From Eledone cirrhosa (Eukaryota), in the NCBI GenBank assembly GCA_964016885.1, contig OZ024764.1, positions 12,214,001 to 12,278,000 of the forward strand: DNA of 64,000 bases. The letters run 5' to 3'. The notes beneath the pieces were generated by a model. It was given only the letters and a program-made list of their open reading frames with translations, did not search any database and was not told where the DNA came from. Shown one piece after another: positions 5,599 to 61,253 of the stretch. Position numbers and translations under genes: made by a program. The number at the start of each line of letters is the position of its first letter. The stretch's first letter is position 1.

Positions 5599-5663
5599 TA
5601 TTTTATTATACATATTTCAAGGACACCACGTTAAATTATGGTGTGCTTTCATCAGACAAAATA
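5599..5663 (-). ncRNA. Type I hammerhead ribozyme, family H1
   Basis: UAUUUUGU-CUGAUGA-AAG C ACACCAU..GUGGUGU C CUU-GAAA-UAUGUAUA-AUAAAAUA; 8-bp stem I, AUA triplet; core-truncated duplicate at ~5222-5275. Confidence 0.8.
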
Positions 5664-6071
5664 CAATATAGATCAGTTTTATAAATAAACATTGACATAC
5701 CCTTAAAAAATGCAACCATTACTGTTGGAAGCTCCCGGATAGTGGAGTTGTTTACTTATATTATTATTAGTATTGGATATTGTAAAATAAATCGTTGGGT
5801 TAGAGAGAAAGAAAGAGAGAGAGAGGAAAGAAAGAAAAAAGAGAGAAAAGAGAGAGAGAGATACCAAAACAACAGAGAGAGAAAAACAATATATATATAG
5901 ATAGATAGATAGACAGTCGATCGACTTTCATCAAATGGGACCGAGGAAACAATGTTTCCAATTGCTAATACTATCTATCTGTCGCAACTCCAGTTAGAAG
6001 GAGCAACGGGAGTTCGATTCTCTAACAGCTTAGTCACGCGTTTTCACGAAGTATACTGTACTATATATATA

Positions 6072-6730
6072 TAACAACAATACCACCACCAACACTACCA
6101 CCACAACAGCACCAACACTACCACCACAACCATCAACAACACTACCTCCACAACCATCACCAACACTATCAATAACATTATCACCACATCCAGCGCCAAT
6201 ACCATTACCAACAACACCACTACTACCACAACCAACACCAACACACCACTACTACCACAACCAACACCAACAAGATTGTCGACACTATCACCACTACCGC
6301 CACAACATAACAACACCACTACCACCACAACCACCAACACTAATAACAACACCACTACCACCCACAACAACACTACCACCACCAACACTACCACCACAGC
6401 ACTACCACCAACAGTACCACCACAACACTACCACCACAGCACTACCACCACAACCACCAACACTAATAACAACATCACTACCACCACCACCCACAACACC
6501 ACTACCACCGCCAACACTACCACCAACAACACTACCACCACCAACACTACCACCAACACTACCACCACCACCAACACTACCACCACTGCCACCACCATCA
6601 CTACCACCACCAACACTACCACCAACACTACCACCACCACCACCACCACCACCAACACTACCACCAACACTACCACCAACACTACCACCACCACCAACAC
6701 TACCACCACTGCCACCACCATCACTGCTAC
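6072..6730. repeat. Degenerate (CAC/CAA)n microsatellite
   Basis: Trinucleotide repeat; source of the poly-T/poly-V ORFs. Confidence 0.9.
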
Positions 6731-6830
6731 CATCCAGAAAGGAAAAAAAGATGACAGAACGTTAAGAAGAAAAGTAAAGAAAAGAAAAGGAAAGAAGAAA
6801 AACAACACAGTAAAGGAAAAGATGTCCAAC

Positions 6831-6869
6831 CAAGATGGCGTTCATTGTTTTCAGTGTAGGTCACGTGAT
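6831..6869. promoter_or_regulatory. YY1-like plus E-box motifs
   Basis: CAAGATGGCG at 6831 and GTCACGTGA at 6860; motif match only. Confidence 0.25.
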
Positions 6870-7079
6870 ACTGTGATTTATGGCTTGTTTCAATTAAGTG
6901 AAACGACAGTTATGGATTGGTGGCGGTGGGGTGGAGGTAGTGAGGCTGAACGGAGTGTGGGATGTTGGGGTATGTAGGGACAGGAGGAGGGAGAGAGAGA
7001 AAGAGAGAGAGAGAGAGAGAGAGAGAGAGAGAGAGAGAGAGAGAGGAGTTAATGTGGTAGGAAGAAGAGGGAGGGTTCC

Positions 7080-10000
7080 ACCGAAGGGTCTTCGGAGTAA
7101 CGTTACTTGATACAGTGTGTAGCTTGGATATCGAAGTATTGTCTAGGTAGAGACACAACTTCTCCGAATTGAGAGATCACAGCTCCAATACTATGGACAT
7201 ATGGTTAGAATGTCTCAGGAAAGAATCTCTGAATTAAGGGATCACAGCTCTGATACTACAGACATGTGGTTAGAATGTCTGAGGAAAGAATCTCTGGATT
7301 GAGAGATCACAGCTCTGATACTACAGACATGGGGTTAGAATGTCTCAGGAAAGAATCTTTGAATTAAGGGATCACAGCTCTGATACTATGGGCATGTGGT
7401 TAGAATGTCTCAGGAAAGAATCTCTGAATTGAGAGATCACAGCTTTGATACTACAGGCATGTGGTTAGAATGTCTCAAGAAAGAATCCCTGAATGGAGAG
7501 ATCACAGCTCTGATACTACAGACATGTGGTTAGAATGTCTCAGGAAAGAATCTCTGAATTGAGAGATCACAGCTCTGATACTATGGACATATGGTTAGAA
7601 TGTCTCAAGAAAGAATCCCTGAATTGAAAGATCACAGCTCTGATACTACAGACATGTGGTTAGAATGTCTCAGGAAAGAATCTCTGAATGGAGAGATCAC
7701 AGCTCTGATTCTACAGACATGTGGATAGAATGTCTCAGGAAAGAATCTCTGAATTGAGAGATCACAGCTCTGATACTACAGACATGTGGTTAGAATGTCT
7801 CTGGAAAGAATCTCTGAATTGAGAGATTACAGCTCTGATACTACAGACATGTGGTTAGAATGTCTCAGGAAAGAATCTCTGAATTGAGAGATCACAGCTC
7901 TGATATTACAGACATGTGGTTGGAATGTCTCAGGAAAGAATCTCTGAATTGAGAGTTCACAGCTCTGATACTACAGACATGTGGTTAGAATGTCTCAGGA
8001 AAGAATCTCTGAATTGAGAGATCACAGCTCTGATACTTAGACATGTGTTTAGAGTGTCTCAGGAAAGAATCTCTGGATTGAGAGATCACAGCTCTGATAC
8101 TACAGACATGTGGATAGAATGTCTCAGGAAAGAATCTCTGGATTGAGAGATCACAGCTCTGATACTACAGACATGTGGTTAGAATGTCTCAGGAAAGAAT
8201 CTCTGAATTGAGAGATCACAGCTCTGATACTACAGACATGTGGTTAGAATGTCTCAGGAAAGAATCTCTGAATTGAGAGACCACAGCTCTGATACTACAG
8301 ACATATGGTTAGAATGTCTCAGGAAAGAATCTTTGAATTGAGAGATCACAGCTCTGATACTACAGACATGTGGTTGGAATGTCTCAGGAAAGAATCTCCT
8401 AATTGAGAGATCACAGCTCTGATACTACAGACATGTGGTTAGAATGTCTCAGGAAAGAATCTCTGAATTGAGAGATCACAGCTCTGATACTACAGACATA
8501 TGGTTAGAATGTCTCAGGAAAGAATCTTTGAATTGAGAGATCACAGCTCTGATACTACAGACATGTGGTTGGAATGTCTCAGGAAAGAATCTCTGAATTG
8601 AGAGACCACAGCTCTGATACTACAGACATGTGGTTAGAATGTCTCAGGAAAGAATCTCTGAATTGAAGGATCACAGCTCTGATACTACAGACATGTGGTT
8701 AGAATGTCTCAGGAAAGAATCTCTGAATTGAGAGATCACAGCTCTGATACTACAGACATGTGGTTAGAATGTCTCAGGAAAGAATCTCTGAATTGAGAGA
8801 TCACAGCTCTGATACTACAGACATGTGGTTAGAATGTCTGAGGAAAGAATCTCTGAATTGAGAGATCACAGCTCTGATACTACAGACATGTGGTTAGAAT
8901 GTCTCAGGAAAGAATCTCTGAATTGAGAGATCACAGCTCTTATACTACAGACATGTGGTTAGAATGTCTCAGGAAAGAATCTCTGAATTGAGAGATCACA
9001 GCTCTGATACTACAGACATGTGGTTAGAATGTCTGAGGAAAGAATCTCTGAATTGAGAGATCACAGCTCTGATACTACAGACATGTGGTTAGAATGTCTC
9101 AGGAAAGAATCTCTGAATTGAGAGATCACAGCTCTTATACTACAGACATGTGGTTAGAATGTCTCAGGAAAGAATCTCTGAATTGAGAGATCACAGCTCT
9201 GATACTACAGACATGTGGTTAGAATGTCTCAGGAAAGAATCTCTGAATTGAGAGACCACAGCTCTGATACTTAGACATGTGTTTAGAGTGTCTCAGGAAA
9301 GAATCTCTGGATTGAGAGATCACAGCTCTGATACTACAGACATGTGGATAGAATGTCTCAGGAAAGAATCTCTGGATTGAGAGATCACAGCTCTGATACT
9401 ACAGACATGTGGTTAGAATGTCTCAGGAAAGAATCTCCGAATTGAGAGATCACAGCTCTGAATCTACAGACATGTGGTTAGAATGTCTCTGGAAAGAATC
9501 TCTGAATTGAGAGACCACAGCTCTGATACTACAGACATGTGGTTAGAATGTCTCAGGAAAGAATCTCTGAATTGAGAGACCACAGCTCTGATACTACAGA
9601 CATGTGGTTAGAATGTCTCAGGAAAGAATCTCTGAATTGAGAGATCACAGCTCTGATACTACAGACATGTGGTTAGAATGTCTGAGGAAAGAATCTCTGA
9701 ATTGAGAGATCACAGCTCTGATACTACAGACATGTGGTTAGAATGTCTCAGGAAAGAATCTCTGAATTGAGAGATCACAGCTCTGATACTACAGACATGT
9801 GGTTAGAATGTCTCAGGAAAGAATCTCCGAATTGAGAGATCACAGCTCTGATACTACAGACATGTGGTTAGAATGTCTCAGGAAAGAATCTCTGAATTGA
9901 GAGATCACAGCTCTGATACTACAGACATGTGGTTAGAATGTCTCAGGAAAGAATCTCCGAATTGAGAGATCACAGCTCTGAATCTACAGACATGTGGTTA

Positions 10001-59845: not shown

Positions 59846-60364
59846 TATATACATATATATATATATATATATATATACATACATATATATATATGTGTGT
59901 GTGTGTGTGTGTGTATTTATATTTATACATATATGTGTGTGTGTATATTCTCTCTCTCGTCTGCGTCTTCACAGAACTTATGTTTACCGAATTCGCAGAC
60001 CAGACCCCTTCTTCTTCCTCCCGTTAGACCTGTGCGAAATTCCTTCCTTGCTCACATTTCAACCAGGTCTGATGGTCTTTATTCTCTAGTTCACGATTTT
60101 ATCGAGTTTATATTCATAGAAATCTGGGACTTGTCTCTTTCTTCTCACTTTCTGTTGCTTAAACCATTTTGTTTGTTCACCCTAACGTTCTCTTTATTTA
60201 CGTGTCCCAACGACTTTTTTTAGCCGTTGTTCGCACCAACCTGAGGTATATGGCCCTTAAAGCGATGAAATGCCTAGGACGGTTGGAGGGTCACTGATGA
60301 AGGACTCACTTTTTTATATATATATATATATATATATATATATATATATATATATATATCAAAG

Positions 60365-60487
60365 GTTAGAAACTCAAAGTAGTCTCTTACAATAAAATAG
60401 CTCAAGGAAAGAGATTTTTCCCAGCCATATATTATAATCTCTTTCCTAGAGCTACTTTATTGTAAGAGACTATTTTGAGTTTCTAAC
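60365..60487. repeat. Inverted repeat, ~52-bp arms
   Basis: GTTAGAAACTCAAA.TAGTCTCTTACAATAAA.TAGCTC.AGGAAAGAGATT mirrored. Confidence 0.8.
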
Positions 60488-60702
60488 TCAATATATACCT
60501 TTGATATATTCTAACTCAACATATACCTTTGATATATTCGGCTCTGTTAATTTGTCGATAAATGTTGAGTAAATTTGGCTGCTATTTTTTAGTGGTGTGA
60601 GTTTGTGAGACACGCTAGGTTCTGATACCCTCTGCGTTATTATATATACGCTCACTATTCAGTTTTCTGAGATATTTAGAAGCGAGGAGTTTACTAATTT
60701 TA

Positions 60703-60780
60703 CACCCACTGATGAGCAATAATTGATAATCCTCTTCACAATTAATTTGTGAAACACCATTACCAAACGCTGTCTGGGTG
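60703..60780 (+). ncRNA. Type I hammerhead ribozyme with GUC triplet
   Basis: CACCCA-CTGATGA-GCAA TAATTG..CAATTA..TTGT-GAA-ACA..TGT-C-TGGGTG; predicted cleavage after 60774. Confidence 0.8.
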
Positions 60781-61000
60781 ATTGGTAGTTACCACAAATC
60801 CGGTTGGTATTTATTTTTTTTATTTATTCTTAAATTGAGTCTGGCAAACCCTATTGTCCATAGTTAGTATCTTTTTCACCCTAGCGAATCTGGTCCCTTA
60901 GGATTTGAACATATATATGTATATATCTATGTTTATCTCTCTTTTATATTCTATTATAATATATATATATATATATATATATATATATATATATATATAT

Positions 61001-61253
61001 AAGTAGAAGGGGTATTTAATTTGTTGGAAGTCCGACAAATATAAATGTTTATAACTGATATAGAGCACTCAACAACATACTGGAGAATATCCAACCGATA
61101 AGGTATGATTTTCATGGGTTTGTCTCTATTTATAAAACAAACTTTGTATTTTATCTGATGAAAGCGCACCAATGTGTCTTGGTACCCTTAAAATATATAT
61201 ATTAAAATAAATATGGTTTTCTAAATATAGTTTCCATTTATTTAACATCATTG
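61001..61253. mobile_element. H1 element with inactivated HHR (61147-61209)
   Basis: Inverted tail 61001-61089; forward arm from TCCAACCGATAAGG at 61090; GAAA mutated to AAAA (G12A). Confidence 0.75.

What the first reader, a model, noticed from the sequence alone, without database searches (positions are those of the whole stretch)
5599..61209. Dense hidden population of type I hammerhead ribozymes (~18 intact cores in 64 kb)
Seen: the ordered motif stem I-CUGANGA-stem II-GAAA-stem III-NUH-stem I' occurs at 5599(-), 20906(-), 21871(-), 22048(+), 26061(+), 28601(-), 29741(+), 30543(+), 36588(-), 48410(-), 48608(+), 52178(-), 52419(+), 52854(-), 53964(+), 55797(+), 59741(+) and 60703(+), with a dead copy at 61147. 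Stem II sequences differ between families but keep their pairing (AAG/CUU, AGG/CCU, AAA/UUU, GGA/UUU). In 17 of these the CUGANGA core varies only at the free position 7 (U, G, A); 20906 carries the U3-A8 swap. Established: type I HHRs occur in Penelope-like element pLTRs and in metazoan non-LTR retrozymes. Inference: these are non-autonomous ribozyme-bearing retroelements, possibly undescribed for this lineage and easily masked as AT-rich low-complexity DNA.
Basis: partly seen in the sequence, partly recalled or inferred. Interest (0 to 1): 0.92.

Follow-up and report, generated by a model that had tools for sequence, protein, structure and literature searches.

The report
Penelope retrotransposon stumps carrying hammerhead ribozymes
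The hammerhead motifs are real and mostly mark the short 3' stumps of known Penelope-like jumping genes; they are unusually numerous (an estimated quarter of a million in this genome), and the ends of their copies suggest that two separately primed DNA copies of an uncut transcript build each mirror-image insertion.

Summary
Observation largely confirmed. Of 18 claimed motifs, 15 pass a strict type I hammerhead descriptor (shuffles 0), 20938 passes with a 3-bp stem I, 30549 is a non-canonical family member, and 36617 has no stem I. One more (25673) was missed. The 18 belong to 15 insertions, because three pairs are two arms of one fold-back.

Interpretation partly supported. Fifteen are 3' pseudo-LTR ends of protein-coding Penelope-like elements: 14 Hydra clade, 1 Neptune. 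Only 52898 (about 155-nt mini-element) and 60709 (about 515-nt retrozyme-like unit) look non-autonomous. Hammerheads in such ends, opposed pairs and an octopus Hydra family are in print.

New here:
- About 270,000 motifs genome-wide (sample estimate 150,000-450,000).
- Stem/loop III was self-complementary in 77 of 77 unselected hits.
- The two arms end at two fixed 3' sites, share subfamily alleles, and are often not nested, which argues against self-priming.
- Short copies stop at an initiator-like A upstream of the uncut ribozyme.

Cleavage is untested and no RNA run was listed. The scan has noted hammerhead/Penelope elements on other DNA of this genome before.

The parts
5599..5663 (-). Type I HHR, family A3 (Hydra pLTR), 8-nt loop III with one G.U
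   Evidence: pLTR-ORF-pLTR relative L372; 727 exact 29-mer matches
20906..20941 (-). U3-A8 HHR, Neptune pLTR, 6-nt palindromic loop III, 3-bp stem I in this copy
   Evidence: family flanks the 938-aa RT+GIY-YIG ORF in L041
21734..22158 (.). One fold-back insertion in (TA/CA)n, family A1 (Hydra): tailed minus arm and short plus arm
21871..21934 (-). HHR of the tailed arm (A1)
22048..22112 (+). HHR of the short arm (A1)
   Evidence: 1,955 exact 27-mers; Hydra-like ORF end about 1 kb upstream in L162, L169, L216
25668..25791 (+).
   Evidence: 3 of 8 loci pass the descriptor, one being the window copy
26061..26134 (+). HHR, family C (Hydra pLTR), 11-bp stem I
   Evidence: Hydra-like ORF end upstream in L292
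28603..28734 (-). HHR, family D (Hydra pLTR), about 100-nt stem II region, C.A closing
29533..29850 (.). Fold-back insertion, family B: inverted tail arm plus direct arm starting at -69; HHR 29741-29811(+)
30543..30609 (+). Non-canonical HHR, family G (Hydra-related): 2x2 mismatch at base of stem II, 3-bp stem III
   Evidence: Hydra-like ORF fragments upstream in L371; 281 exact 30-mers
36588..36619 (-). Hammerhead core and stem II only; no stem I in copy or family
48284..48708 (.). One fold-back insertion in (TA)n, family B (Hydra): both arms start near -70; HHRs 48410-48480(-) and 48608-48678(+)
   Evidence: 10,568 exact 27-mers; full elements L200, L214
52049..52492 (.). One fold-back insertion in (TA)n, family A2 (Hydra); HHRs 52178-52243(-) and 52419-52484(+)
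   Evidence: 3,164 exact 27-mers; full elements L349, L351-L355
52854..52904 (-). HHR of family F, an apparently non-autonomous element of about 155 nt that starts at stem I; U.U closing, 4-bp stem III
   Evidence: (1,689 exact 27-mers)
53964..54119 (+). HHR, family D (Hydra pLTR), 115-nt stem II region, 9-bp stem I
55797..55862 (+). HHR, family A2, single arm
59741..59811 (+). HHR, family B, in a fold-back (about 59569-59842) whose inverted arm holds only the tail
60703..60780 (+). HHR with real stem III and GUC site, family E, about 515-nt head-to-tail unit, retrozyme-like; no ORF found
61147..61209 (+). Dead A1 copy (G12 changed) in a tail-only fold-back (about 61002-61253)

Best explanation
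Fifteen of the 18 motifs are hammerheads in the 3' pseudo-LTR ends of 5'-truncated Penelope-like retrotransposon copies (14 Hydra clade, 1 Neptune clade), and each mirror-image insertion was likely made by two cDNAs primed separately on the two nicked strands of a (TA)n target from uncut RNA of one source. Shown: family-to-ORF links, two fixed 3' ends per family (about +108/+191 from C3 in family B), one of each per fold-back, allele sharing between arms, non-nested arms, and a modal 5' stop at an initiator-like A. Inferred: that this stop is the transcription start, so that priming at the tail sites near the 5' end of the mRNA runs off after 170-290 nt and floods the genome with short hammerhead-bearing stumps. 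Also inferred: that the ribozymes, having no stable stem III, cut only as dimers paired through the palindromic loop III, probably with protein help, and that single genomic stumps are mostly inert.
For: ORF links: pLTR-ORF-pLTR in L041 (Neptune; Pfam RVT_1 2e-6, GIY-YIG 2e-6), L214, L349, L351-L355, L372 (Hydra motifs); ORF ends upstream for A1, C, D, G. Two 3' ends: A2 22 of 49 arms at or below +110, 21 at +190-194, 6 run on in tandem; Neptune +112/+180. Exactly one tailed arm in 33 of 37 family-B rows. In 13 of those 33 the arm reaching further 5' lacks the tail (10 cleanly mapped), so neither arm contains the other. Arms share subfamily alleles: no discordant shared site in 29 of 33 B pairs against 13% of random pairs, and 12 of 20 A1 pairs against 9%. 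5' stops: B 29 of 87 arms at -69 to -71, A1 13 of 69 at -78 to -82, C 11 of 25 at -66 to -68, A2 9 of 48 at -87 to -95, each at YC|A, with a TATA-like box about 32 nt upstream in C. Contigs of two other organism labels break at -69 and +190 too. No arm starts within 3 nt of the cut site (0 of 97). Stem/loop III self-complementary in 77 of 77 hits without that requirement, 10 different sequences. Published basis: two internal RT starts, both strands nicked and extended, uncut RNA as main substrate, protein-assisted HHR (PMC11167929); internal promoter (PMC2377424).
Against: No RNA evidence and no cleavage assay. Clade calls rest on motifs, not a tree; Pfam found no RT or EN in the family-B protein, and its match to the Neptune RT is weak (24%, E 2e-4). 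Allele sharing could also come from gene conversion after insertion. Two of the window's own pairs differ at shared sites (2 and 3 sites), which suggests occasional mixed templates. Seven of 33 B pairs are nested and so fit self-priming too. Full-length tandem copies did not stop at the modal site: 0 of 8 upstream hammerheads. The family-B stop lies in a short palindrome, which could favour joining there. The cut-site test is weak: only 21 arms ended in the informative interval, about 1 expected by chance. A1, C, D and G were linked only to ORF ends or fragments.
Confidence: 0.8

Rival explanations
1. The short copies are self-propagating non-autonomous elements (retrozyme or SINE-like), mobilised by Penelope-like enzymes.
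For: True-looking for family F (no kilobase opposed pair among the first 100 listed matches; none of 14 unselected copies extends beyond about -7) and family E (downstream sequence recurs upstream at 515-522 nt spacing, no ORF). An internal promoter (PMC2377424) would let stumps that start at +1 be transcribed.
Against: Families A1, A2, A3, B, C, D, G and the Neptune family have ORF-bearing long copies. Short and long B copies share the commonest haplotypes. Sequence upstream of the 5' stop is the inverted arm or target, not a head-to-tail repeat.
Confidence: 0.15
2. Head-to-head palindromes form by self-priming: one cDNA, or an antisense RNA, folds back and copies itself (proposed in PMC3846280).
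For: Near-perfect palindromes, and arms more alike than random copies (B 0.9% against 3.3%). Twelve short symmetric and 7 nested B pairs fit.
Against: Self-copying gives nested arms; 13 of 33 pairs are non-nested, 10 cleanly. Many junctions carry extra bases at the centre.
Confidence: 0.12
3. The two arms come from two different RNA molecules of the family, possibly held together by hammerhead dimerisation (my own first idea).
For: Window pairs and L123, L236 differ at family-shared sites; loop III duplexes of -3 to -10 kcal/mol.
Against: Most pairs share subfamily and private alleles, so any two RNAs must come from the same source locus.
Confidence: 0.1
4. The motifs are chance matches in AT-rich, low-complexity DNA.
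For: Stem II is only 3 bp next to the core in most copies, and loop III of the A and C families is an AT repeat.
Against: Shuffles give 0-1; thousands of family copies with reversed-pattern controls 0; GC-rich palindromes in other families.
Confidence: 0.01

Closest known systems
Hydra-clade Penelope-like elements (Craig et al. 2021, PMC8557442; section 11, passages and supplement rows read)
   Same: RW motif, DKT, CxCX5C linker, no CCHH, CxxC and CxH near the end, (TA)n target, canonical HHR, inverted 5'-truncated arm and tail; Hydra-1_Obim listed for Octopus bimaculoides.
   Different: Paper describes a small number of families outside cnidarians, generally under 3 kb; here at least seven families of 3.3-4 kb period with hundreds to over 10,000 exact core matches each, and tails of 83-95 nt instead of 30-40.
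PLE-HHRs (Cervera and de la Pena 2014, PMC4209133; parts 1-2 of 4 read)
   Same: Type I HHR in pLTRs, palindromic loop III, predicted dimers, U3-A8 variant, mostly dispersed single motifs, opposed pairs 100-700 bp apart.
   Different: Counts there reach about 9,000 per genome; here about 270,000 estimated. Stem I is 6-11 bp, stem II regions reach 115 nt, and U.U, C.A or A.A closings replace G10.1-C11.1 in several families.
Poseidon_Ac in vitro (Frangieh et al. 2024, PMC11167929; parts 1-2 of 4 read)
   Same: Two internal RT start sites defining the tail, both strands extended, uncut RNA used.
   Different: That work saw no difference in start site between strands and does not treat inverted arms in the passages read; here each fold-back uses one site per arm.
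Metazoan non-LTR retrozymes (PMC7229834, passages; preprint 10.64898/2026.07.22.740005, parts 1-2 of 5)
   Same: Type I HHR, non-coding, PLE-related; family E (60709) resembles them.
   Different: Defined as head-to-tail tandem units giving circular RNA; 17 of 18 window motifs are not in such units.
Neptune-clade PLEs
   Same: GxKF, DKG, C-x4-C-xx-C linker, C-terminal GIY-YIG in the family of 20938.
   Different: U3-A8 core; second H of the CCHH motif not seen in the copy translated.

Membership tests
Type I hammerhead ribozyme | Ordered core CUGANGA...GAAA...UH with stems I, II and III | tested here: met
   15 of 18 strict, 16 with 3-bp stem I; not met for 36617; 30549 non-canonical
Type I hammerhead ribozyme | Structure kept through sequence change | tested here: met
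   77 of 77 unselected hits with self-complementary stem/loop III, 10 sequences; stem I differs between families. No R-scape test.
Type I hammerhead ribozyme | Self-cleavage at NUH | not testable with these tools
   No assay; no RNA run listed
Type I hammerhead ribozyme | Match to an Rfam hammerhead model | tested here: not met
   0 gathering hits on 8 loci; none among the 150 of 620 rows shown
Hydra-clade PLE | Single ORF with RT and C-terminal GIY-YIG-type EN | tested here: met
   821-aa ORF with YRDD and LIY...YFGST; atlas neighbours carry HTH_animal, GIY-YIG, RVT_1; Pfam scan itself blank for family B, GIY-YIG 4e-4 for A1
Hydra-clade PLE | RWK-type motif, DKT, no GxKF/Y | tested here: met
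   RWT/RWI (third residue differs from RWK), DKT, no GxKF
Hydra-clade PLE | CxCX5C linker, no CCHH, CxxC and CxH near the end | tested here: met
   P0003 and P0004; other families linked by tblastn at 29-59% identity
Hydra-clade PLE | pLTR with HHR, (TA)n target, tail, inverted arm | tested here: met
   L214, L349, L351-L355, L372
Hydra-clade PLE | Placement in the Hydra clade of an RT tree | not tested
   No reference Hydra sequences fetched
Neptune-clade PLE (20938) | GxKF, DKG, CX2-5CxxC linker, C-terminal GIY-YIG | tested here: met
   P0001
Neptune-clade PLE (20938) | CCHH motif in EN | tested here: inconclusive
   CxxC and first H present; second H not seen in P0001
Non-LTR retrozyme | Head-to-tail units, each with an HHR, no ORF | tested here: inconclusive
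   Not met for the Hydra, Neptune and F families. Family E shows more-than-unit copies at 515-522 nt but no locus with two HHRs in tandem among 15 examined
Non-LTR retrozyme | Circular RNA expression | not testable with these tools
   No RNA run listed

The most novel reading that the evidence does not exclude
The fossil ends record a general two-cDNA integration mechanism for Penelope-like elements: a dimeric enzyme primes both nicked target strands on one uncut transcript, one arm from each of the two internal start sites. Priming at the 5'-proximal copy of those sites runs off at the transcription start, which mass-produces hammerhead stumps and makes this genome hold more hammerhead motifs than any count in the papers read here. 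Family-specific palindromes in loop III act as a dimer-pairing code among co-resident families.
Probability: 0.5. Interest if true: 0.62.

Novelty: new member of a known kind. Interest (0 to 1): 0.4.

Why it matters
The system is known, so the biology is not surprising in kind. Its value is scale and testability. An estimated 150,000-450,000 Rfam-invisible hammerheads in 3 Gb compare with 120,000 retrozymes in axolotl, about 9,000 minimal motifs in Xenopus and 235 Rfam hits in giant squid. Young, abundant Hydra families with near-intact ORFs give natural statistics on an open question, how the inverted arm of Penelope insertions forms: non-nested arms argue against the published self-priming idea and fit the in vitro two-strand extension. 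They also predict transcription starts to the base and offer many natural core variants (U3-A8, mismatched stem II closings, long stem II) for assay.

Tried and rejected
Rfam at E<=1 was swamped by microsatellite and hairpin miRNA hits; no hammerhead among the 150 rows shown of 620, and 0 at gathering on 8 loci. Repeat and ORF listings of the window were dominated by microsatellites; tblastn found no PLE ORF remnant in the window itself. The Pfam GIY-YIG search gave Neptune-type elements only; Hydra ORFs had to be found through widely spaced opposed pairs.

Two different RNA templates per insertion: rejected as the rule. Differences at +89 to +105 were end-junction artefacts and were dropped; L005 (complex tandem) and L159 (two unrelated copies) were left out of that count. 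A cap-derived G at the 5' junction: 14 of 48 arms, but explainable by the partner arm, so not claimed. A link of the F-like motif to the ORF in L057 was rejected because its upstream is an inverted arm. No RNA holder listed.

Literature searches for the claim in print: hammerhead+Penelope+octopus, hammerhead ribozyme+cephalopod, PLE+inverted+pLTR+hammerhead, Penelope+TSS+pLTR+promoter, octopus+genome+Penelope+ribozyme, Penelope-like+twin priming+inverted, 2024-onward mechanism. None listed a cephalopod hammerhead census or a two-cDNA analysis; the library lacks most subscription papers. The Craig supplement is stored cut, and its file S2 hammerhead listing was not read; the preprint's supplements were not seen.

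
Full report
Setting. The window is G000:C25:12,214,001-12,278,000 of a 3.0-Gb animal assembly, 32% GC and full of microsatellites. An octopus-type host is my inference from recalled repeat types, not a tool result. Positions below are the first C (or U) of the core, called C3; offsets count from it.

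1. Observation. A strict descriptor gave 14 hits against 0.05-0.1 in 3 x 40 shuffles. With one stem II mismatch allowed it gave 17 against 0 in five shuffles: 15 claimed motifs, the unreported 25673 and a probable chance hit at 25876. 20938 has a 3-bp stem I and a U3-A8 core shared by its family. 30549 belongs to a family with a 2x2 mismatch at the base of stem II and a 3-bp stem III. 36617 is a core only: its family pairs 0-2 bases where stem I should be, 14 of 14; Craig et al. note similar 'HHR core' cases in Naiads, and earlier scan notes read such cores as scrambled hammerheads, which I did not test further. Three pairs are arms of single fold-back insertions, so the 18 motifs are 15 insertions.

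2. Density. In 59 evenly placed 10-kb samples I found 54 strict motifs (shuffles 0-1 per set), 29 in 200 kb of neighbours and 17 in the window. This scales to about 274,000 motifs (bootstrap 147,000-447,000; 207,000 without one 14-hit sample). Exact 27-30-mers number 10,568 (B), 3,164 (A2), 1,955 (A1), 1,689 (F), 727 (A3) and 281 (G), with reversed controls 0. Without requiring any stem III pairing, 77 hits in 854 kb (shuffles 1, 0, 0) all had a self-complementary region: 52 perfect palindromes, 23 with G.U, 2 other, in 10 sequences. Copies of a family are not independent, so the unit of evidence is the 10 sequences.

3. What carries them. The 20938 family lies about 0.9-1.4 kb downstream of RT + GIY-YIG ORFs; L041 is pLTR-ORF-pLTR with a 938-aa frame bearing GxKF, DKG and a C-x4-C-xx-C linker, which marks Neptune. 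Family B (29749, 48472, 48616, 59749) leads to 738-821-aa frames that Pfam misses but that carry the Hydra features listed by Craig et al. (section 11): RW motif (RWT/RWI here), DKT, CxCX5C, no CCHH, terminal CxxC and CxH. Atlas neighbours are PLE-type proteins. A2 (52235, 52427, 55805) and A3 (5655) have full pLTR-ORF-pLTR relatives about 50% identical to that protein. A1, C, D and G have Hydra-like ORF ends or fragments upstream on the same strand. That makes 14 Hydra and 1 Neptune. Family F (52898) runs from about -7 to +70 or +150 with no long copy seen. Family E (60709) has a 5-bp stem III in relatives, more-than-unit copies at 515-522 nt and no ORF in 15 loci. The window holds no ORF remnant.

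4. Anatomy of insertions. 3' ends fall at two sites per family: B near +108 and +191, A1 near +105 and +200, A2 +107/+194, Neptune +112/+180. In 33 of 37 family-B rows (36 insertions; L215 repeats L184) exactly one arm has the tail. Of those 33, 13 are symmetric (12 short, near -70; one unresolved), 7 nested and 13 non-nested, 10 of these cleanly mapped. In a non-nested pair neither arm can be a copy of the other, which contradicts self-priming (proposed in PMC3846280, passages) for that class. Arms share subfamily alleles far beyond random pairs (B concordance 0.86 against 0.11; A1 0.61 against 0.13), so both came from one source, or were homogenised later. The window's 48472/48616 and 21926/22056 pairs are among the exceptions. 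5' ends peak sharply: B -69 to -71 (29 of 87), A1 -78 to -82 (13 of 69), C -66 to -68 (11 of 25), A2 -87 to -95 (9 of 48). These sets are enriched for pairs I chose to fetch. Each peak is an A after YC, and family C has a TATA-like box about 32 nt upstream. Contigs from two other organism labels have loose ends at -69 and +190. Short and long B copies share haplotypes. None of 97 tail-anchored arms begins within 3 nt of the cut site, a weak test.

5. Mechanism. Established: PLE protein nicks and extends both strands, starts at two internal sites that define the tail, uses uncut RNA, and its hammerhead cuts only with protein (PMC11167929); Penelope has an internal promoter (PMC2377424, abstract and section 14); PLE hammerheads are dimer-type and weak (PMC4209133). 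Inferred: each nicked strand primes its own cDNA, one per start site, and the two cDNA ends are joined head to head. When priming uses the start sites just behind the 5' pLTR of an mRNA, the cDNA runs off at the transcription start, giving 170-290-nt stumps that always span the ribozyme. This would explain the density of intact-looking motifs beside (TA)n. Against it: 8 upstream hammerheads of full-length copies did not stop at the modal site, conversion was not excluded, and there are no RNA data.

6. Comparison and novelty. Hammerheads in pLTRs, dispersed truncated copies, opposed pairs and the U3-A8 swap were reported in 2014; inverted arms, tails, the Hydra clade with hammerheads and an Octopus Hydra family in 2021; retrozymes as PLE derivatives in a 2026 preprint. 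The families are new members of known kinds. The census size, the non-nested-arm argument and the start-site run-off reading were not found in seven searches. The scan holds 374 earlier notes on hammerhead/Penelope elements in this genome, several with a similar two-arm reading; these are unchecked AI notes and were not counted as support.

7. Verdict. Real, mostly explained, with a testable mechanistic by-product. Interest 0.40.

Noticed in passing
window 25668-25791(+): A nineteenth hammerhead of an older family (about 80% identity, 232 candidates) with a 10-nt self-complementary loop III.
   Followed up: partly
window 29200-29475: Decayed A-like fold-back: the minus arm keeps the core at 29254 but loses stem III and stem I; the other arm starts inside stem II.
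   Followed up: no
window 5100-5350: Local duplication containing a second, 5'-truncated A3 copy that begins inside the core.
   Followed up: no
window 52980-53075: Palindrome centred inside stem II of a C-like family: both arms truncated within the ribozyme.
   Followed up: no
window 52531-52621: Second, decayed family-F fold-back; its tail read antisense resembles a Pol III B box (motif recalled).
   Followed up: no
window 25341(-), 4761(+), 53830(+), 60294(+): Core-like strings without a complete type I fold; possibly truncated minimal or Naiad-type cores.
   Followed up: no
window 51860-51943: Perfect GC-rich hairpin next to (TA)n that scores above the Rfam gathering cut-off for a plastid family (75.9 bits), probably spurious; the same repeat occurs in L002.
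   Followed up: no
L044, L050, L051, L057 and window 52898, 53973, 30549: Several families keep a mismatch (U.U, C.A, A.A) at the 10.1-11.1 position across copies, a possible functional variant of the core.
   Followed up: partly
L081 (G000:C3:190,000,001-190,010,000): Sample with 14 hammerhead hits, probably a retrozyme-like array; array structure not examined.
   Followed up: no
window 7161-10414, 17327-18201, 36755-38471, 45934-46513: Tandem arrays of 65, 89 and 20 bp and a degenerate telomeric-repeat block; the 89-bp unit resembles an octopus SINE (recalled).
   Followed up: no
window 10748-11185(-), 41175-41993(-): Broken LINE-like protein fragments in the ORF list (family resemblance recalled, not scanned).
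   Followed up: no
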